Below, piece after piece: positions 34,224 to 46,953 of a DNA stretch of 64,000 nucleotides. A program made the position numbers and the translations under genes. Positions within the stretch are counted from its first letter, which is position 1. Every line of letters begins with the position of its first letter. The DNA is from Candidatus Harrisonbacteria bacterium. Lineage in GTDB: Bacteria; Patescibacteriota; Minisyncoccia; UBA6257; UBA11618. The notes beneath the pieces were generated by a model. The model saw only the letters and a list, made by a program, of their open reading frames with translations. It made no database searches and was not told the origin of the DNA. The stretch is taken from contig JAHFLN010000001.1 of NCBI GenBank assembly GCA_023244835.1, positions 4,912 to 68,911 on the forward strand. Reading direction: 5' to 3'.

Positions 34224-35429
34224 TTATTGCGGGGTGCTTGTCGCGGTAGTCGCGGCCATCATTTCCACCTTACCGCCCTTCACCACCTCGCCGCTGTAGC
34301 CGCTCTCGCGGTCGCCGTCCGGCTTGATCGTGATCGAGCCCGATGCGCCCTGCCAATCCTTCACGGTGCGGAACCAGTCCGCGAGCTTCGCGCCGTCGTC
34401 TCCCACGGCCATCAGGCCCTCTTTCGCCATATAAACGCCGTCGTACACGGTCTGGCCGTAGGACTTGAACGGCATATCAACACCGAACTTTGCTTTGTAG
34501 GCCTGATCCAATGCCGCGAACTTCGTATTCGCCGGGTCAACCGCGAATTCGGCCGCGAGCGCACCTTCCAAAATATCCTTGTATTTCTCGACCGTCGCGC
34601 GGTCGCCTACGAACGCCTCGTTCACGAGCATCTTCGGCTTCCACTTCAAGTCGACTAATTGCTTAATGACCCGCTCGCCGGATGCCGGCGTCTGCGCGTT
34701 CAGGAAGAGCGCGTCGGGCTTCGCCGCCTTTAACTTTGTAAGCATCGAGCGGAAATCGGTCGCGCTCGTCGGGAACTCCTCCTTCACCACCGTACCGCCT
34801 AATGCTTCGAACGAAGCGCTGAATGCCTTGAAGATGCCCAAGGGGTAGTCAAGCTGCTCCTGAATCATCGCGACCTTCTTCCAGCCTTTCGCGGCCGCGG
34901 CCTTCGCCAACACCTCGCCCTGCGTCGCGTCACTCGGATAGTCACGCACGAAGAAACGGCTCTTGCCCGTCAAGTCGGGACTGCTCGAGCCGGTCGAGAG
35001 CATGAGTACCTGGCCCGCCTCCGCGACCGGGATCGCCGCGAGCGATTCGCCACTGCAGAACCCGCCGAGAATGAAATGAACCTTGTCGACGTTTACCAGC
35101 TTCTGCGCCGCGCTCGTCGCGTCCTTACCGCTGCACTTACCATCTTCATAAATAACTTCGAGCGGCCGGCCATTTACGCCACCCGCGGCGTTGATTTCTT
35201 CAACCGCGAGCATGACGACGTTCCGCTTCATTTCCCCATATGACGCGCCATCGCCCGACAAGGGAGCGATGAAACCGATCTTAAGCGGCTCGACAGCCAC
35301 CGGAACCGTGCTCGTCGCGACGGTCTCCTCAACCGGCGCTTCAGCAGGCGCGCCGAGCATGGCGTACCCCGCCCATGCGACCACGCCCAACACGACGACC
35401 CATATAATAGCTTTCGCTGTAGTGTTCAT
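34224..35429 (-). CDS. ABC transporter substrate-binding protein, LivJ-like, TM-anchored
   Basis: Peripla_BP_6 pattern. Confidence 0.82.
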   Translation of the reverse strand: MNTTAKAIIWVVVLGVVAWAGYAMLGAPAEAPVEETVATSTVPVAVEPLKIGFIAPLSGDGASYGEMKRNVVMLAVEEINAAGGVNGRPLEVIYEDGKCSGKDATSAAQKLVNVDKVHFILGGFCSGESLAAIPVAEAGQVLMLSTGSSSPDLTGKSRFFVRDYPSDATQGEVLAKAAAAKGWKKVAMIQEQLDYPLGIFKAFSASFEALGGTVVKEEFPTSATDFRSMLTKLKAAKPDALFLNAQTPASGERVIKQLVDLKWKPKMLVNEAFVGDRATVEKYKDILEGALAAEFAVDPANTKFAALDQAYKAKFGVDMPFKSYGQTVYDGVYMAKEGLMAVGDDGAKLADWFRTVKDWQGASGSITIKPDGDRESGYSGEVVKGGKVEMMAATTATSTPQ

Positions 35430-35547
35430 AGTGCCTTCATACTACCCAAGCCATGATGTCCGTCAATATGGACAAAACGCACTATAATCATCGTAATTAC
35501 GCCTGATTGAACGAATCGGCAGGGCACGATATACTGAACCCGCCGAA

Positions 35548-35635
35548 GGAGGGGTCGCATAGCGGCCTAGTGCACCATCTTGGAAAGGTGGCATACCGAA
35601 AGGTATCGAGGGTTCGAATCCCTCCCCCTCCGCCA
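35548..35635 (+). tRNA. tRNA-Ser (anticodon GGA), class II with long variable arm, CCA encoded
   Basis: Acceptor GGAGGGG/CCCCTCC; anticodon stem CCATC/GGTGG; loop TTGGAAA; T-loop GGTTCGAATCC; TTGAAC-17-TATACT promoter upstream. Confidence 0.85.
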
Positions 35636-35656
35636 GATTGGCAACTTTGAACCAAT

Positions 35657-36430
35657 ATGAATACATGGACTAAAAAGAGTATAGAACTGGCGCGTAAACC
35701 GGGATATTTAGATGCCTTGGGCGCTATTTATGTTATGAATATAAATCCTAGTAGACCACTAACGGAAGAAGTTGAGAAAAAAATACGAGAGGCTTTCCAT
35801 AATAGAAAAAATAAAGAGTTAGTTCATCTGTTAATTCAAAACGAAGTCTTTCCGGTCAAGGATTCTTATGTCGGATTTTTAAGACTTAACCCTGCGGCTA
35901 TTGATCAAAATCCGATAACTATCAATAGAATATCAGAAAGGCTTTACTCATTGGGGATTGAAGCACTTCTTAAGGAGGCAACTCGTCCTAAAGAGACAAA
36001 TCGTCAACTCGGACACTCATTCAAAAAATGGTTGCCTCAATTAGGTTATCCCGTACTTAATGTAGAAGAGTTTGCCAATACTCGAGGTGTGGCCATCCTT
36101 GCCGGTGGGGACGCACAACTTGCAAAATACGCTAGAGAGAAGTTGGGCTGTGAATTATCCAAAGGTATTGATTTTGTTTTAAAGAAAGGAAAGAATCATA
36201 TTATTGGTGAAGCTAAATTTCTTACAACTCCTGGAGGAGAGCAAGATCGAGGTTTTGATGACGCATCAAATTTTATTAAAGGAAAATTGCGCCCAAATGT
36301 GAAAAGAATAGCTGTTTTGGATGGCTATATCTGGGTAGAACGAACTGGTGGGCTCCACAATAAGATCGTGATGAACAACCTTGATATTTTTAGTGCTCTA
36401 CTCCTTCCCGAATATATTAAAAAGTTTTAG
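35657..36430 (+). CDS. Putative type II restriction endonuclease, PD-(D/E)xK-like
   Basis: AT-rich gene beginning 22 bp after the tRNA; candidate GIDFV...IIGEAKF catalytic motif; convergent with and overlapping the methyltransferase stop. Confidence 0.5.
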   Translation: MNTWTKKSIELARKPGYLDALGAIYVMNINPSRPLTEEVEKKIREAFHNRKNKELVHLLIQNEVFPVKDSYVGFLRLNPAAIDQNPITINRISERLYSLGIEALLKEATRPKETNRQLGHSFKKWLPQLGYPVLNVEEFANTRGVAILAGGDAQLAKYAREKLGCELSKGIDFVLKKGKNHIIGEAKFLTTPGGEQDRGFDDASNFIKGKLRPNVKRIAVLDGYIWVERTGGLHNKIVMNNLDIFSALLLPEYIKKF

Positions 36431-38187
36431 GTTGCAGAATAAACCTCAAAAGAAGCTTTTAATTTAGCTCCTTCTTTTTCTATAAGACTAATAGCATTTT
36501 TATTGAGGTCTATTCCTATCCAATTTCTTTTTAGTTCTTCAGCGGCTAGTAGAGTAGTACCCGACCCCGCAAAACAATCCAAAACCAAGTCGTCTTGCGT
36601 TGTAGAGCTCTGAATAATTTGTTTCAATAAGTCTCGATTTTTCTGTGTTGGGTAAAGAGAGCTCTCGAAACCAGGATCTTTAAAGTCCCACACGTCCTGA
36701 AGTTTCTTGCCTCGGTTTTCGTCTGCGTAGATTTTTTTTCGAGGATTCCCTGAACTAGACCACTCAATCAATCCTTCTTTATCTAGGCGTGTTAATTCTT
36801 CAGGGTTATATCTCCAATGCCTTCCTTTCGGTGGGAGCATGCCTTTCCATTCTCTGCCCGTAGGACCATTTCGTGTCTCTCCTTTAGCGTGAAGAGGTGT
36901 GGTGGCATACCTACGCCCTTTTTTGTCAATCTTGGGAAATTGTTTTATGATCTCCTCCTCAGTTAAGGCTATACGATGGTCCGTCCAAGACATTGGGTCA
37001 TGTCCATTTGGTTTTGATTTGGAATAAAAATATATTACATCTTTTATGTTCCCGAAAGCTTTCCTATCGAAATTTTTTGGATTACATTTTATTCTGGTAA
37101 TGTCATTTCTAAAATTTTCCTCTCCGAATACTTCGTCCATTAATACTTTTACATAATGTCCTATTTTCTGATCAATATGGAGGTATATGCTACCTGTTTC
37201 GGAAAGTAATTCTCTAAGAAGGATCAGTCTTTTTCTTAAAAACTCAAGGAAATCTGTGTTTGTAAGTTTGTCGCTATAAAAGTTTTCTTCGTTATAACCA
37301 ACAAAATCTTGCCCTGTACCAAAAGGTGGATCGATATAAATTAATTCGATATTGCCCTTTATATTTTTATTTTCATACAAATTCTTAAGAACACTGAGAT
37401 TGTCGCCTGCAATTAATTTATTTACAGACTTTGATCCATATTTCTTAGTAAGTTTAAGTTGAGCCGCTTTGATTTCAAGAACTTCTTCTTCCTTTATTTT
37501 TCCTCGATAAATCAACTCAGCTCCTCCTTTAGGACGACGTGCATGAGGAATCGTATGAAGAATATTTTCTGCTCTCTCCCTCTCGGAATATCTTTCGTTG
37601 GATTTAATAATATCTATAACTACACCTTGGATAGTTAACCGTTCAGGTTCAATAAAAAGAGGTAGCATTGTTTGGTTCGCAGGCTGTAGCCGTATCCTAT
37701 TTTTCTCCCTAAAAAACTTTTTAAGTGTGGCGGACTCCTGATCAATCAAAGCAACAACTTTTTGACCATTGTGTGCTACCGATTGACTCTGAATCAACAC
37801 AATGTCTCCATCGTTGATATTCTCATCAATCATACTATCGCCATACACACGTAGAGCGTAAACATCACTACTTTTAGGCATTTTCGATTTCGGGATAGCG
37901 ATTGTCTCCTTTTCTTGAATTGCTTCAATTGGCTCGCCTGCAGCAATAGTACCCAGGAGAGGAATGCTTACCAGGGGTTCGCCAGAGGAAATACTTATAG
38001 AACGTGCTTTATTTTCAGATTTATCCAAATATCCACTATCTCGTAGTTTGTTTATATGAAAATGTGCAGTAGAAACAGAGGCAAGTTTAAAATGCCTCTG
38101 TATTTCCTCTAAGGAGGGGGCATACCCTTTCTTTTTGGAAGACTCTTTTACGAAATCGAAGACCTCTTTTTGCTTTTTGGTGAGCAT
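36427..38187 (-). CDS. LexA-like repressor (HTH plus S24 peptidase) fused to beta-class amino-DNA methyltransferase (DPPF ... FAGSGTT)
   Basis: N-terminal ~205 aa align to LexA (IAAGEPI cleavage site, LRVYGDSM Ser, DGDIVLI, NGQKVVALID, TLKKF Lys); C-terminal motif IV IDPPF then motif I DCFAGSGTT. Confidence 0.8.
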   Translation of the reverse strand: MLTKKQKEVFDFVKESSKKKGYAPSLEEIQRHFKLASVSTAHFHINKLRDSGYLDKSENKARSISISSGEPLVSIPLLGTIAAGEPIEAIQEKETIAIPKSKMPKSSDVYALRVYGDSMIDENINDGDIVLIQSQSVAHNGQKVVALIDQESATLKKFFREKNRIRLQPANQTMLPLFIEPERLTIQGVVIDIIKSNERYSERERAENILHTIPHARRPKGGAELIYRGKIKEEEVLEIKAAQLKLTKKYGSKSVNKLIAGDNLSVLKNLYENKNIKGNIELIYIDPPFGTGQDFVGYNEENFYSDKLTNTDFLEFLRKRLILLRELLSETGSIYLHIDQKIGHYVKVLMDEVFGEENFRNDITRIKCNPKNFDRKAFGNIKDVIYFYSKSKPNGHDPMSWTDHRIALTEEEIIKQFPKIDKKGRRYATTPLHAKGETRNGPTGREWKGMLPPKGRHWRYNPEELTRLDKEGLIEWSSSGNPRKKIYADENRGKKLQDVWDFKDPGFESSLYPTQKNRDLLKQIIQSSTTQDDLVLDCFAGSGTTLLAAEELKRNWIGIDLNKNAISLIEKEGAKLKASFEVYSAT

Positions 38188-38242
38188 ATTGATATTATAG
38201 AAAATAAATAGAAAGTATACAAATCAAGTTATCCACAAGGTC

Positions 38243-39238
38243 ATGGCAAAGCATCACATCGTTCAAGACAAATATCTCACTCAATGGAGAAAAAGCGGAA
38301 CAGAAAATCAGCTCAATATTTATGTTATTCATGAAAATCAAATTATAGAAAGAGGACCGGGATGGAAGGGTTTTTGGAGAGATGATTTTAATGTGCTTGA
38401 AGATGACGGTGAAAAGTCCTACCTCCCAGAGGAAGTTACGGTAATTATTGATACAAAGGGTATTGAAGCTGTCAGGAAAATAAATACTACAAGCGAAGAA
38501 TTATTATCAGGTATGGATAGGAGTTGCGTAGCTTTTTATACGGCATTGCAGTACACAAGAACTCCGCGACACAGAGAGGAAACAAACAAATTGATCGAAG
38601 CTACTACCCGACATTTTATGAGAAAAGACCTTCCATCACCAGATAAGGTGCATATGTCCAAAGATAAGATACTCGAGTATAACCCACAGAATAAAATGGA
38701 GGAGGATGCTCTGGATGTGATAAGTAAGATGACGCAAGAGGAAATCAACTCACAGATTTTTAAGGCAATACACGATGATACAGTCAGGATCGGCCTTACA
38801 AAGACAGGCCACTCAAAAGGCATTCTGAAAGTAGATCGTCATGCCGAGAAGATATTTGAAATGCAGTGGCTATTCCTAGTAACTCCTGAGGGTACGTCCT
38901 TCATTACCTCGGATAGCCCTTGTTTTACAATATCCACATCGAAACTGAATGGGCTAATATCGCCTCACTCAACGGTATATTTCCCATTAAGACCAGATAT
39001 ATGTCTTTACATAAAACCGAGCATGAAATCAAAAGCAGAATACTATATGAAGTTAGATAAGGGACAGGTTAGGGATATAAATTCACTGATACTCTCAAAC
39101 AGTACCCAATGTGCAGTTGCCAAGGACAAAATACATTTAGAGAAACTGACCAAGAACTTCGATTACAAAAACCACAGAAAGTCACGCGTTATATCTATTA
39201 GCGAATCGGGGCCATACACAATGTTTACCGCAGAATAG
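38243..39238 (+). CDS. DUF4238-like protein
   Basis: N-terminal KHHIVQDKYLTQW matching the DUF4238 HhxPQxYL motif; AT-rich; adjacent to R-M pair. Confidence 0.5.
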   Translation: MAKHHIVQDKYLTQWRKSGTENQLNIYVIHENQIIERGPGWKGFWRDDFNVLEDDGEKSYLPEEVTVIIDTKGIEAVRKINTTSEELLSGMDRSCVAFYTALQYTRTPRHREETNKLIEATTRHFMRKDLPSPDKVHMSKDKILEYNPQNKMEEDALDVISKMTQEEINSQIFKAIHDDTVRIGLTKTGHSKGILKVDRHAEKIFEMQWLFLVTPEGTSFITSDSPCFTISTSKLNGLISPHSTVYFPLRPDICLYIKPSMKSKAEYYMKLDKGQVRDINSLILSNSTQCAVAKDKIHLEKLTKNFDYKNHRKSRVISISESGPYTMFTAE

Positions 39239-39479
39239 TAAATTAACCTGAGTAGCCTGTATATTTTAGGCTAGACAGAATAATCAACTGCATTTTGCCC
39301 TATATCTGACTTTGGCTTCGGTACTTCAAACCATTCAGGGTGGACTTTGTAGATAACCCTTAGTTTCTGTATACTTTTATCAAGATCCTCGAATTTGAGC
39401 CGTACTTTTGGTTCAAAGTTACGGGCATCGTCCCCGCCTAATGCAAAAGAGATGGCCTTGCGCCATCCCCTTTTGCATT

Positions 39480-39600
39480 AGATGTGATGGCTTGGAGAGG
39501 ATTCGAACCGAAGGTCCCCTATTTTCAAGGAGGCTTACAGCCGACTATGAAAATAGCGGCCTCGACCGAAGGAAGAGGCGAATCCCCCCCGCCCTTGCAT
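39480..39600. other. Degenerate tRNA-like remnant(s) at far edge of island
   Basis: Plus strand ATAGCGGCCT..ACCGAAGGAAGAGGCGAATCCCCCCCGCCC resembles tRNA-Ser D-loop, variable arm and 3' end; minus strand carries a GGTTCGAATCC T-loop-like motif. Confidence 0.4.
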
Positions 39601-39614
39601 TACTCCTCTTTAAC

Positions 39615-40079
39615 TTAATCCTTCCCAGACTTCGCGCTTATTCCATCGCGTACGATACCCTCAAGCACTGCCGCCGTACTGGCAGCAATGATAGAGCCGA
39701 AGGCAACGAGAAGTCCTATAGCAACCCCGCCTGCCCGGTCATCGCTCGTGTTCAGCATAATGAATACTTCCCCTACCGCGACGAAGCCAATGATAACAAA
39801 GGCGCACCGCCTAATAGTCCGCATGGCATTTACGACTTGTTGCGAAAACGCCTTACCCTCTCGGATATATCGGAGCGCCGTGAATGCCTGATAGAGCGCC
39901 GTGAAAAACGCGATTGATCCTATATAAGCGAATAGTATGAAAGGATCGGAATACATTTCGAAATTCGTGGCGTTCGCGTTCACGCCCTCGACGCGAGGTT
40001 CCCATACGAGAAACGCAAGCGCGCCAATGCCGATAAGCATGATGACTGCTTGAAGAAATATCGTCGGGCCTTTTTTCAT
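39615..40079 (-). CDS. Hypothetical polytopic membrane protein
   Basis: Four predicted TM helices; start chosen at MKKGPTIF. Confidence 0.5.
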   Translation of the reverse strand: MKKGPTIFLQAVIMLIGIGALAFLVWEPRVEGVNANATNFEMYSDPFILFAYIGSIAFFTALYQAFTALRYIREGKAFSQQVVNAMRTIRRCAFVIIGFVAVGEVFIMLNTSDDRAGGVAIGLLVAFGSIIAASTAAVLEGIVRDGISAKSGKD

Positions 40080-45966: not shown

Positions 45967-46263
45967 TTACGACTCAAGGATCGCGAGGATATCCGCCTCG
46001 TCGGCAACCAAATACTTCTTGCCGTCAAGCTCGACCTCGTCCGGCCCGTATTTCTTGAAAAGCACGAGGTCTCCCACCTTCACGGACATCGGATTCAGCT
46101 CCCCTCGGTCATTCCGCTTGCCCGCGCCGACCGCGAGCACGCGCCCCTTTACCGGCCGTTCTTTTTCCGCTGTATCCGGCAGGACGATGCCTGATTTCGT
46201 CATGCGGTCTTCTTCCATGGCATCGAGAAACACGCGATCAGCAATGGGTTTTATGGTCATCAT
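45967..46263 (-). CDS. groS: Co-chaperonin GroES (as the C-terminal 98 aa of a 328 aa ORF)
   Basis: MMTIKPIADRVFLD...GKRNDRGELNPMSVKVGDLVLF typical GroES; no stop separates it from the upstream nucleotidyltransferase-fold region. Confidence 0.85.
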   Translation of the reverse strand: MMTIKPIADRVFLDAMEEDRMTKSGIVLPDTAEKERPVKGRVLAVGAGKRNDRGELNPMSVKVGDLVLFKKYGPDEVELDGKKYLVADEADILAILES

Positions 46264-46953
46264 AGTACCTAGGAGTATATCCTGTTTTTTCCCATGGTCA
46301 AGAGCGCGAACGCTTTCTCCCGGCGCTTTTTTCGGACGGAAGCACAGCTCGACGCGGCTTTCCGAAACGCTGATGCGCGATTCGCTTGACGCGCCGAATC
46401 GAATGCTCTGCGCCGCGATCCGGCGCTCCTGAATACGCCTCATGAGCGCTTCGCCCCAGGCGCCGAATGCGAAATCGAAGAGCGTCTCCGCGCACGCGAC
46501 AAGCGGGATCTTCTCCTTCCTATAGCGATATCTCACATTCGCGAATATCCCCTCGCGCATCGCCCCTGATGCCGTAAGGAATTCCCCAATCGCCTCCCGC
46601 GTTCCCACGACGGGCACGAGCGACGCGGCGAGGGCCCGTGCATACGCGTCCTCCGGCGCGTCGAGGCGGGCATCCGTCGCTATAAAATGATTCAGGCAAA
46701 AGCCTCTGCCGCGCGCGGCGATATGCGTACGGAGTCCGAGCAAACGGAAAATCCCCAAACAGAAAAAACGCGCCGTATACATACGGCCCGGCCGCGTTCC
46801 GACGATCACATCCCAGTCGGAATTCCTATGGGCATCGCCTGTCGCGAGCGATCCCGACACGAGCACTAAGTCGACGAAGGGGATCCACTCGAAGATCCAG
46901 ACCTTCCCGAGCAGGCCGTGCCATGCGTGGTCGAAAATTCCTTTTTGGTCCAT
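46264..46953 (-). CDS. Nucleotidyltransferase-fold domain ORF continuous in-frame with groES
   Basis: Pol-beta-type motif LVSGSLATGDAHRNSDWDVIV (G[GS]-x9-13-DxD); ATG at 46953 three nt after the rmuC stop. Confidence 0.5.

What the first reader, a model, noticed from the sequence alone, without database searches (positions are those of the whole stretch)
38243..39238. DUF4238-like gene adjacent to the R-M pair
The N-terminal KHHIVQDKYLTQW fits the DUF4238 signature (HhxPQxYL). DUF4238 proteins recur in defence islands and are of unknown mechanism. It is transcribed divergently from the LexA-MTase gene and shares the 55 bp intergenic region, so the two could be co-regulated by the LexA module.
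Basis: inference. Interest (0 to 1): 0.5.

Follow-up and report, generated by a model that had tools for sequence, protein, structure and literature searches.

The report
DUF4238 defence gene under LexA control
This is a genuine, well-conserved DUF4238 gene, a family whose one tested member protects E. coli from phage T7 by an unknown mechanism. Here it shares a 55-base control region with a restriction-system methylase fused to a LexA-type DNA-damage repressor, so the two are probably switched together.

Summary
Window 38243-39238 (+) is an intact 331-aa ORF. It matches Pfam PF14022/DUF4238 end to end (E 5e-27). It also aligns over 270 columns with the E. coli DUF4238 protein that was shown to block T7 (hhalign 98.3%). 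It is under strong purifying selection (dN/dS about 0.07). The AlphaFold model is confident (pLDDT 90) but resembles no solved structure, so the biochemistry remains unknown.

The gene lies in a 3.8-kb low-GC island beside tRNA-Ser, together with a Tsp45I-family restriction enzyme and a LexA(wHTH+S24)-methyltransferase fusion.

The co-regulation idea gains real comparative support. In 16 of 51 dereplicated homologous loci, DUF4238 sits divergently next to (15 loci), or one gene away from (1), such a LexA fusion or its promoter cassette. The methylase part belongs to at least seven types. The shared spacer carries a direct repeat, TTTCTAT-N4-TTTCTAT (38197-38214), overlapping the lexA -10. This repeat follows the lexA gene, not DUF4238: 14/15 versus 0/36 loci. 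It also co-varies with the LexA recognition helix. The same R-M pair occurs elsewhere with other genes in the DUF4238 position, so this is a swappable cargo slot.

Not tested: binding, damage induction and anti-phage activity.

The parts
38243..39238 (+). DUF4238-family gene (331 aa): the finding itself and a putative single-protein anti-phage effector
   Evidence: ORF. PF14022 E 5.3e-27, full length. hhalign to the validated E. coli TA007 protein gives 98.3%, E 1.5e-14. dN/dS about 0.07. AF2 pLDDT 89.6 with no solved-structure relative.
38188..38242 (.). 55-bp shared control region between the divergent lexA-MTase and DUF4238 genes
   Evidence: The core (46 nt) differs by one base from L010/L026 although synonymous sites have dS about 0.5. 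It is 53/55 identical to L034, where DUF4238 is 72% and LexA 64% identical.
38197..38214 (-). Candidate LexA operator: direct repeat TTTCTAT-TTAT-TTTCTAT (TTTC-N7-TTTC, 11-bp period) on the minus strand
   Evidence: It is the only such site in the 64-kb window. It is present upstream of 20/21 lexA-like genes of this clade. It occurs in 14/15 LexA-linked versus 0/36 LexA-less DUF4238 upstream regions. It co-varies with the recognition helix. It has the same geometry as the published GTTC-N7-GTTC LexA boxes.
38194..38199 (-). TATAAT -10 hexamer of the lexA-MTase promoter, overlapping the operator, 6 nt before the ATG (near-leaderless)
   Evidence: Read from the sequence. The same TATAAT/TATACT follows the repeat in all related loci. 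The strict sigma-70 scan did not call it because no good -35 is present.
38229..38237 (+). TTATCCACA, identical to the DnaA-box consensus; conserved element of the cassette, role unknown
   Evidence: An exact 9-mer is found in 16 of 21 cassettes, with one-mismatch variants in the others. Distance is variable and both orientations occur.
36427..38187 (-). LexA-MTase fusion (586 aa): wHTH (nt 38002-38184), S24 autoprotease (37615-37962), N6/N4 DNA methyltransferase (36475-37350)
   Evidence: Pfam, NCBIfam and PADLOC. The Ala-Gly cleavage site, Ser (GDSM) and Lys (TLKK) align with E. coli and T. maritima LexA structures.
35657..36430 (+). Tsp45I-family type II restriction endonuclease, convergent with the MTase and overlapping it by 4 nt
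   Evidence: PF06300 E 1e-68; PADLOC REase_II.
35548..35635 (+). tRNA-Ser(GGA); left border of the low-GC island (homology to other islands starts inside its 3' end at 35606-35621)
   Evidence: ARAGORN and Rfam; GC profile; blastn.
39271..39441 (-). Conserved right flank of the cargo slot: start-less remnant of a small ORF (...GGDDARNFEPKVRLKFEDLDKSIQKLRVIYKVHPEWFEVPKPKSDIGQNAVDYSV*)
   Evidence: It is conserved after DUF4238 in L010, L026, L027, L033, L034 and L012. It is also conserved after the unrelated 426-aa cargo gene in L091/92. It has no Pfam hit.

Best explanation
The gene encodes a functional member of the DUF4238 family, a single-protein anti-phage defence family (DefenseFinder's Rst_DUF4238). 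It belongs to a small clade found so far almost only in Patescibacteria (CPR) genomes and metagenomes. It arrived in a 3.8-kb low-GC island inserted next to tRNA-Ser, together with a Tsp45I-type R-M system whose methyltransferase is fused to a complete LexA repressor (winged HTH plus S24 autoprotease).

The proposed regulation is as follows. The LexA-MTase dimer binds the direct repeat TTTCTAT-N4-TTTCTAT in the 55-bp spacer. That site overlaps the -10 of its own promoter, and it lies where any DUF4238-directed transcript must start or pass. One repressor therefore holds both genes down. When RecA-ssDNA filaments form, for example through phage replication or restriction-made breaks, the LexA part would cut itself at Ala-Gly. 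This would release the DNA-binding domain and raise methylase and DUF4238 expression together. DUF4238 would then act as a second defence layer.

DUF4238 itself looks like an enzyme. It has invariant His-His, Gln, Tyr, Glu, Asp, Arg, Cys and Asn positions, plus a near-invariant His-Ser-Lys (GHSK) motif, on a fold not seen in any solved structure. Its substrate and trigger are unknown.

Shown here: family membership, selection, recurrent linkage, the conserved operator-like repeat and its covariation, and intact LexA catalytic residues. Inferred: LexA binding, co-repression, damage induction and anti-phage activity.
For: Membership:
- PF14022 E 5e-27, full length.
- Profile alignment to the T7-protective E. 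coli protein: 98.3% probability, with the motifs HH..Q.YL, RTP..RE, FITSDNP and FP in register.
- The only BFVD fold match is a protein of the P2-like phage Smp131, E 1.7e-9.
- Functional constraint: dN/dS 0.06-0.08.

Context:
- The island is at 38% GC against 58% flanks, next to a tRNA.
- In 34 dereplicated loci the commonest neighbour families are S24/LexA, DNA methylases and serine recombinases. ResIII, DpnI and Mrr also occur.

Linkage:
- 16 of 51 dereplicated loci, about half of those at least 55% identical, have a LexA-fusion or its promoter cassette upstream of DUF4238 (15 directly divergent; in L038 a vsr gene intervenes), with at least seven different MTase types and different REases.

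Operator:
- The repeat is present in 20 of 21 lexA-like promoters.
- It is absent from 36 of 36 LexA-less DUF4238 upstream regions.
- It is unique in the window.
- The spacer is far more conserved than synonymous sites.
- The half-site switches from CTA to CGG exactly where the recognition helix switches from H-F/Y-H/Y to H-Q/E-H. This happened in at least two separate lineages.
- Direct repeats with N7 spacing are an established LexA-box type.

LexA integrity:
- The cleavage site and the Ser/Lys dyad are conserved.
Against: - There is no experimental evidence for binding, cleavage, induction or phage resistance.
- The window protein is only about 21% identical to the validated E. coli protein. 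It has no PADLOC, NCBIfam or phage tblastn hit.
- No consensus sigma-70 promoter reading towards DUF4238 is detectable in the window's 55-bp spacer. The best candidate is the weak TTGCTT-N17-TATTAT. A clear TTGACT-N18-TATAAT exists only in the longer-spacer loci.
- The linkage is facultative. Most DUF4238 homologues lack LexA. The same R-M pair occurs with a 78-aa or a 426-aa gene in the DUF4238 position.
- The covariation rests on few independent events.
- Whether CPR RecA would activate this fusion is unknown.
Confidence: 0.55

Rival explanations
1. The adjacency has no regulatory meaning. The repeat only autoregulates lexA-MTase. DUF4238 is an independent cassette that landed in a recombination-prone slot and is expressed from its own, unrepressed promoter.
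For: The slot holds unrelated genes in otherwise 84-94% identical R-M islands. Homology breakpoints fall exactly at the lexA start codon. 35 of 51 DUF4238 loci have no LexA. The operator tracks lexA, not DUF4238.
Against: Only 55 bp separate the genes, and the operator plus the -10 occupy the part next to lexA. In the longer-spacer loci the DUF4238-directed TTGACT-N18-TATAAT places the operator at about +1 to +20. In L038 the DUF4238 gene kept an operator-like copy even though a vsr gene separates it from lexA. The whole spacer, including the DUF4238-proximal half, is nearly invariant.
Confidence: 0.25
2. The two genes are co-repressed but do not respond to damage. The LexA module serves only as a dimeric autorepressor, like the N-terminal HTH of SsoII/Ecl18kI-type methylases. 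It sets the expression timing after the island enters a new cell, and self-cleavage is not used.
For: MTase N-terminal HTH autorepression with divergent promoters is an established R-M control mode. Five of five stand-alone LexA genes of this clade that were looked up sit in front of REase genes, where C-proteins normally sit.
Against: The Ala-Gly site, the catalytic Ser and the catalytic Lys are strictly kept in every fusion and every stand-alone copy examined. This would not be expected if only dimerisation mattered.
Confidence: 0.25
3. DUF4238 in this clade is not an autonomous defence protein. It is an accessory of restriction systems, for example a helper, alleviation or addiction factor.
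For: Close homologues sit directly after a type III mod-res pair (28-bp gap, same strand), after an Mrr-type enzyme, or next to solitary methylases.
Against: The partners span type II (at least five REase families), type III and type IV systems, so there is no common chemistry to assist. Several loci show no R-M gene within 2.6 kb. The validated E. coli member works alone.
Confidence: 0.1

Closest known systems
Rst_DUF4238 single-gene anti-phage system (E. coli P2-prophage hotspot; Rousset et al. 2022, PMC9122126)
   Same: Same Pfam family. The two proteins are co-linear over 270 columns with the conserved motifs aligned. Both are single-domain proteins of about 300-330 aa and both lie in a mobile hotspot. 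The mechanism is unknown in both.
   Different: Identity is only about 21%. The window protein belongs to a small clade: 28 of 4758 family representatives reach E<=1e-30, and the named homologues and MAG loci are almost all Patescibacteria. The context is chromosomal, tRNA-linked and next to an R-M system under a LexA-type operator, not a P2 cos-proximal hotspot. There is no phenotype for this clade.
Type II methyltransferases with an N-terminal HTH that autorepress and control a divergent gene (SsoII/Ecl18kI type; review PMC3874152)
   Same: A DNA-binding domain is fused to the N-terminus of the MTase, the operator overlaps its own promoter, and there is a divergent gene pair with a short spacer.
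   Different: Here the N-terminal module is a complete LexA with an S24 self-cleaving protease. The divergent partner is a second defence gene, not the REase, which is convergent downstream. The operator is a direct repeat.
LexA/SOS repressors with direct-repeat boxes (GTTC-N7-GTTC, Alphaproteobacteria; PMC8565304 introduction)
   Same: The protein matches the LexA equivalog model above its cut-off and has the cleavage site and Ser/Lys dyad. The box is xTTC-N7-xTTC, and one relative (L097) carries exactly GTTC-N7-GTTC.
   Different: The protein is fused to, or encoded in an operon with, restriction-modification genes and sits on mobile islands. No classical SOS genes are seen under the box in this window. 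It is not established whether it is the cell's SOS regulator or a dedicated paralogue.
Damage-responsive repressors of defence operons (CapH/CapP of CBASS; BrxR/CapW): from my own knowledge, not checked here
   Same: A repressor next to a defence gene is inactivated on a DNA-damage or phage cue, so that immunity genes are induced.
   Different: The protein families differ (XRE-HTH plus metalloprotease, or WYL). Here repressor, protease and methylase are a single polypeptide.

Membership tests
Pfam PF14022 / DUF4238 | Whole-protein HMM score above the curated gathering threshold, with full-length coverage | tested here: met
   95.4 bits against a cut-off of 27; residues 3-296 against profile positions 1-280/281.
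Pfam PF14022 / DUF4238 | N-terminal HH..Q.YL..(F/W) motif and the other conserved blocks (RTP..RE, (T/S)SD.P, FP) | tested here: met
   H4, H5, Q8, Y11, L12 and W15, together with Q103/R106/R111, D224/P226 and F247/P248, are invariant or near-invariant in 49 homologues. They align with the E. coli protein.
Rst_DUF4238 anti-phage system | Homology to the experimentally validated protein (pFR101, E. coli TA007) | tested here: met
   hhalign probability 98.3%, E 1.5e-14, 270 columns, 21% identity. The DefenseFinder model itself is not available. PADLOC v2 gave no hit.
Rst_DUF4238 anti-phage system | Confers phage resistance as a single gene | not testable with these tools
   Only context evidence is available: mobile island and R-M/recombinase neighbours.
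LexA repressor (TIGR00498) - N-terminal part of the neighbouring fusion | wHTH plus S24 domains with the Ala-Gly cleavage site and the Ser/Lys catalytic dyad | tested here: met
   184 bits against a cut-off of 111. AAG, GDSM and TLKK align with E. coli LexA A84-G85, S119 and K156.
LexA repressor (TIGR00498) - N-terminal part of the neighbouring fusion | Binds a specific operator overlapping its own promoter | tested here: inconclusive
   A conserved TTTC-N7-TTTC repeat overlaps the -10, tracks lexA and co-varies with the recognition helix. Physical binding was not tested.
LexA repressor (TIGR00498) - N-terminal part of the neighbouring fusion | RecA*-stimulated self-cleavage and control of an SOS regulon | not testable with these tools
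   No other box-bearing promoter is present in the 64-kb window. The regulon and cleavage are unknown.
C-protein-controlled type II R-M | A separate small HTH controller gene upstream of the REase gene | tested here: not met
   There is no separate C gene. The regulator is fused to the MTase and the REase is convergent.
HTH-MTase autoregulated R-M (SsoII/Ecl18kI type) | MTase N-terminal DNA-binding domain, with the divergent gene being the cognate REase | tested here: not met
   The N-terminal DNA-binding domain is present, but the divergent gene is DUF4238 and the REase lies downstream, convergent. The arrangement therefore works like this type without being a member.

The most novel reading that the evidence does not exclude
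Patescibacteria may carry a modular, mobile 'LexA cassette' system. A self-cleaving LexA repressor is either fused to an R-M methylase or encoded just ahead of a restriction enzyme. It drives a compact bidirectional promoter consisting of a direct-repeat operator plus a DnaA-box-like element. On the far side of that promoter is a swap-in slot bounded by conserved flanks. The slot receives second-line defence genes: DUF4238, an OLD/AriA-like ATPase, and unknown 426-aa and 78-aa proteins. DNA damage or RecA* produced during phage attack or self-restriction would then raise the methylase (self-protection) and a backup effector at the same time. I found no description of such an architecture for R-M or for DUF4238.
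Probability: 0.3. Interest if true: 0.7.

Novelty: new variant of a known kind. Interest (0 to 1): 0.55.

Why it matters
DUF4238 is a validated defence family with no known fold relative and no known mechanism. A clade placed under a LexA-type switch suggests when the protein is needed: after DNA damage or a RecA signal. It also offers a natural on/off handle for studying its activity and toxicity.

The LexA-methylase fusions bear on an old question in R-M biology, namely how methylase and restriction levels are balanced and how self-restriction is survived. Here the methylase would be induced by the very signal that DNA breaks create.

The conserved flanks and swappable cargo give a practical guilt-by-association route to new defence genes in CPR bacteria. 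These organisms are uncultured, and current defence catalogues give no hit for this protein (PADLOC).

Tried and rejected
Searches that found nothing:
- PADLOC v2 and NCBIfam give no hit for the DUF4238 protein.
- tblastn against 50,697 phage records found nothing. Against plasmids there were only two weak hits at 20-24% identity.
- Rfam found only the tRNA in 35300-39900.
- The strict sigma-70 scan found no promoter in the spacer.
- Literature searches for LexA-methyltransferase fusions or LexA-controlled restriction systems returned nothing relevant. This is a limited library, so it does not prove novelty.

Resources that were unavailable:
- The afdb50 fold library.
- The paper on the Patescibacteria LexA regulon (Sanchez-Osuna 2017) is not held. 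I could not check whether the repeat equals the published CPR SOS box.

Ideas considered and dropped:
- The repeat is a DUF4238 promoter element. It is absent from all 36 LexA-less loci.
- TTATCCACA is a ribosome-binding feature of the divergent gene. It occurs in both orientations and at variable distance.
- The closest stand-alone LexA proteins (60-70% identical) are ordinary housekeeping copies. This is doubtful but not excluded, because all five that were looked up sit directly upstream of DpnI- or NmeDI-type genes.
- An integrase-borne island. There is no recombinase in the window island, although serine recombinases flank homologues elsewhere.

Full report
**1. The observation**

Window 38243-39238 (+) is an uninterrupted 331-codon ORF that starts MAKHHIVQDKYLTQW and ends in TAG. 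Against Pfam it hits a single family, PF14022/DUF4238. The score is 95.4 bits (E 5.3e-27; gathering threshold 27) and the match runs from profile position 1 to 280 of 281.

The gene on the other strand (36427-38187) is a 586-aa fusion of LexA_DNA_bind, Peptidase_S24 and N6_N4_Mtase. It also passes NCBI's LexA equivalog model (184 bits against 111). The next gene (35657-36430) is a Tsp45I-family restriction endonuclease. The spacer 38188-38242 is 55 nt. The description is therefore correct in every detail.

**2. Is it a real, working gene?**

- A protein search returned 109 homologues. Most are about 331-332 aa and precomputed as PF14022. The few that carry names come from Patescibacteria MAGs: Azambacteria, Paceibacterota and Kaiserbacteria.
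- 22 positions are invariant in 49 aligned full-length sequences. They include H5, Q8, Y11, Q14, W15, N50, P62, E63, D70, Q103, R106, R111, D224, P226, F247-L249, C254 and N280.
- Against the four closest nucleotide relatives, dN/dS is 0.06-0.08 at dS 0.46-0.78.
- An exhaustive profile search found 4758 family representatives (50% clusters) at E<=1e-3, but only 28 at E<=1e-30. The window protein therefore belongs to a small, tight clade inside a large and very diverse family of mostly single-domain proteins of about 300-330 aa.

**3. What is known about the family?**

Rousset et al. 2022 cloned a single DUF4238 protein from the P2-prophage hotspot of E. coli TA007. They found strong resistance to T7 and stated that the molecular function is unknown. 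A 2024 survey still could not assign Rst_DUF4238 to any known domain family. DUF4238 domains also occur in a TIR-containing E. coli defence system and in Pseudomonas island hotspots.

I recovered the validated protein sequence from the paper's supplement. A profile-sequence comparison with the window clade gives 98.3% probability, E 1.5e-14, over 270 columns at 21% identity. The blocks HH..Q.YL, DFN.L, RTP..RE, FITSDNP and FP are in register.

PADLOC v2, NCBIfam and tblastn against phage genomes give nothing. This reflects how far the clade lies from the enterobacterial members.

**4. Structure**

AlphaFold2 with the 49-sequence alignment gives a confident model (pLDDT 89.6, pTM 0.85). It has N- and C-terminal beta elements around a long helical insert. 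No solved structure resembles it:
- Foldseek against PDB, best E 0.17.
- PDB sequence profile search empty.

The only meaningful match in BFVD is an uncharacterised protein of the P2-like Stenotrophomonas phage Smp131 (E 1.7e-9, TM 0.5). This echoes the P2-hotspot origin of the validated member.

The pattern of invariant His, Asp, Glu, Arg, Cys and Asn residues suggests an enzyme. I could not derive the chemistry, and any specific activity would be a guess.

**5. Genomic setting in the window**

The three genes form a 3.8-kb island at about 38% GC inside sequence of about 58% GC. The island lies immediately 3' of tRNA-Ser(GGA) at 35548-35635. Homology to related islands begins inside the 3' end of the tRNA (35606-35621) and ends at 39441-39465.

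The island is a mosaic of two parts.
- 35621-38188 (Tsp45I plus LexA-MTase) is 94% identical to L088-90. The match stops exactly at the lexA start codon.
- 38020-39441 is 86-87% identical to L010/L026. This stretch covers the first ~170 nt of lexA, the spacer, DUF4238 and a 200-nt right flank. In L010/L026 the LexA is fused to a different, 621-aa methylase paired with an MvaI/BcnI-type enzyme.

The same right flank follows an unrelated 426-aa gene in L091/92. It is a start-less remnant of a small ORF.

In L088-93 the position occupied here by DUF4238 holds a 78-aa or a 426-aa gene with no Pfam or PADLOC hit. DUF4238 therefore sits in a cargo slot bounded by conserved sequence on both sides.

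**6. Recurrence of the LexA link**

I collected 81 DUF4238 loci from genomes and metagenomes. After dereplication at 95% identity, 51 distinct contexts remained.

- In 16 of the 51, a LexA-fusion gene or its promoter cassette lies upstream of DUF4238. That is about half of those at least 55% identical to the window protein. In 15 it is directly divergent. In the sixteenth, L038, a vsr gene lies between.
- The LexA parts are 52-87% identical to the window's.
- The methylase parts belong to at least seven different types: N6/N4 enzymes of 586, 621, 477, 486, 483 and 507 aa, and a 522-aa C5 enzyme.
- The cognate nucleases include Tsp45I, MvaI/BcnI, TaqI and a His-Me enzyme.
- Other homologues follow a type III mod-res pair by 28 bp or an Mrr enzyme. 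Others lie next to serine recombinases or solitary methylases.
- In a census of 149 neighbours, the top families are S24 (8), N6_N4_Mtase (7), LexA_DNA_bind (7) and Resolvase (5).

This is the neighbourhood of a mobile defence gene.

**7. The control region**

Read in the lexA direction, the window spacer is:

CTTGTGGATAAC-TTGATTTGTATAC-TTTCTAT-TTAT-TTTCTAT-AAT-ATCAAT-ATG

It contains a direct repeat with 11-bp period (38197-38214). The second unit of the repeat overlaps a perfect TATAAT, which lies 6 nt before the start codon.

Evidence that this repeat is the LexA operator:
- The same arrangement stands in front of 20 of 21 lexA-like genes examined. These include stand-alone lexA genes with no DUF4238 nearby.
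- Among DUF4238 upstream regions, the repeat (at most 2 mismatches) is present in 14 of 15 with a LexA neighbour and in 0 of 36 without. It therefore belongs to lexA.
- It is the only such site in the 64-kb window.
- Its 46-nt core differs at one base from L010/L026, whereas synonymous sites have dS of about 0.5. It is 53/55 identical in L034, where the two flanking proteins are 72% and 64% identical.
- Seventeen loci with recognition helix S-V-S-T-x-H-(F/Y)-(H/Y) carry TTCTA-type half-sites.
- The four loci with H-Q-H or H-E-H carry TTCGG-type half-sites in both units: TTTCGGT, CTTCGG(C/T), GTTCGGT and TTTCGGT/ATTCGGG.
- These four fall in at least two separate branches of the LexA-domain clustering.
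- One of them reads GTTC-N7-GTTC, the published direct-repeat LexA box of Alphaproteobacteria.

This is good indirect evidence that the LexA module binds the repeat. It is not proof.

**8. Does the operator also govern DUF4238?**

In the loci with longer spacers, a consensus TTGACT-N18-TATAAT reads towards DUF4238. Its -10 overlaps that of the lexA promoter, because ATTATAAT is palindromic. This puts the operator at about +1 to +20.

In the window's short form, the best candidate is the weak TTGCTT-N17-TATTAT, which starts inside the lexA coding region. The strict promoter scan does not call it.

With only 55 bp available, any start site lies within or next to the operator. Co-repression is therefore the most economical reading, but it remains an inference.

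The LexA part keeps the Ala-Gly cleavage site and the Ser/Lys dyad in every copy. For that reason I favour a damage- or RecA*-responsive switch over a purely structural use of the domain.

**9. Comparison with known systems**

The gene itself is a new, divergent member of a known defence family. The regulatory arrangement works like the HTH-methylase autoregulation of SsoII/Ecl18kI-type R-M systems. It also resembles LexA boxes of the direct-repeat class. It differs in three ways:
- The regulator is a full self-cleaving LexA fused to the methylase.
- The divergent partner is a second defence gene rather than the nuclease.
- That partner is exchangeable.

I found no description of this in the papers I could search. 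The one paper most likely to bear on it could not be read.

**10. Verdict**

- The gene is a bona fide DUF4238 family member (near certain).
- It is a plausible anti-phage effector (about 0.65).
- It probably shares a LexA-type operator with the methylase (about 0.6).
- It is possibly damage-inducible (about 0.35).

Interest is moderate. The gene alone is ordinary for a defence island. The LexA-gated, cargo-swapping cassette around it is an unusual and testable variant.

Noticed in passing
window 38229-38237; also L082, L084, L086, L088, L091, L094, L097 upstream of lexA: The exact DnaA-box consensus TTATCCACA is conserved in 16 of 21 LexA cassettes, with one-mismatch variants in the rest. Its distance from the operator varies from 0 to 14 nt, and in L097 it appears in the opposite orientation and twice. 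This suggests a second DNA-binding protein, possibly DnaA, acts on these promoters.
   Followed up: partly
L082-L087, L094-L098 (stand-alone lexA loci): All five stand-alone LexA genes of this clade that I looked up are followed within 0-14 bp by a restriction enzyme gene: DpnI family in four, NmeDI_C in one. LexA appears to take the place of a C-protein for methyl-directed and other REases in Patescibacteria.
   Followed up: partly
L091 4644-5924 (-), L088 3754-3990 (-), L084 1016-2842 (-): The slot divergent from lexA holds other cargo elsewhere. These are a 426-aa protein and a 78-aa protein with no Pfam or PADLOC hit, and an OLD/AriA/GajA-like ATPase. The two unknowns are candidate new defence genes by position.
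   Followed up: partly
window 35621-38188 versus 38020-39441: The island is a recombinant. The R-M half is 94% identical to L088-90, with the match ending exactly at the lexA ATG. The DUF4238 half, including the first ~170 nt of lexA, is 86-87% identical to loci with a different methylase. The conserved lexA 5' end and promoter seem to serve as the crossover region.
   Followed up: yes
window 39271-39441 (-): A conserved 170-nt right flank encodes the C-terminal ~55 residues of a small protein, with no start codon in the window (69 aa with a start in L092). It follows both DUF4238 and the unrelated 426-aa cargo. It has no Pfam match.
   Followed up: partly
window 35643-35655 and 39408-39420: A perfect 13-nt inverted repeat, AACTTTGAACCAA / TTGGTTCAAAGTT, brackets the island. 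About 0.1 such pairs are expected by chance in this 4.4-kb region (my rough estimate). Each arm lies in sequence conserved with other islands.
   Followed up: partly
window ~39488-39575 (-): The sequence GGTTCGAATCCTCTCCA and its surroundings look like the 3' half of a tRNA on the minus strand, just outside the island. Neither ARAGORN nor Rfam calls it. L088 shows three tandem partial tRNA copies beside its island, as expected from repeated integrations at a tRNA.
   Followed up: no
L038 2900-3470: In this locus a LexA-C5-methylase fusion with a CGG-type operator is divergent from a vsr gene. DUF4238 follows vsr and carries its own degenerate copy of the CTA-type operator and a TTTTCCACA box. 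It looks as if the gene moved together with its upstream region.
   Followed up: partly
L031-L033 5400-8000; L013 4500-11000: An 83%-identical DUF4238 lies between a tRNA fragment and a DUF2975 homologue, as in the window. It is preceded by a 168-aa ORF instead of the R-M pair. A Saccharibacteria chromosome has its DUF4238 a few kb from the same GroEL-LemA-HtpX cluster that flanks the window island (54-60% aa identity). This hints at a conserved insertion neighbourhood.
   Followed up: partly
window ~45970-46950 (-), from the gene calls of the source contig: The gene next to groEL is called as a 328-aa product with a Cpn10 domain. This is about three times the usual GroES length.
   Followed up: no
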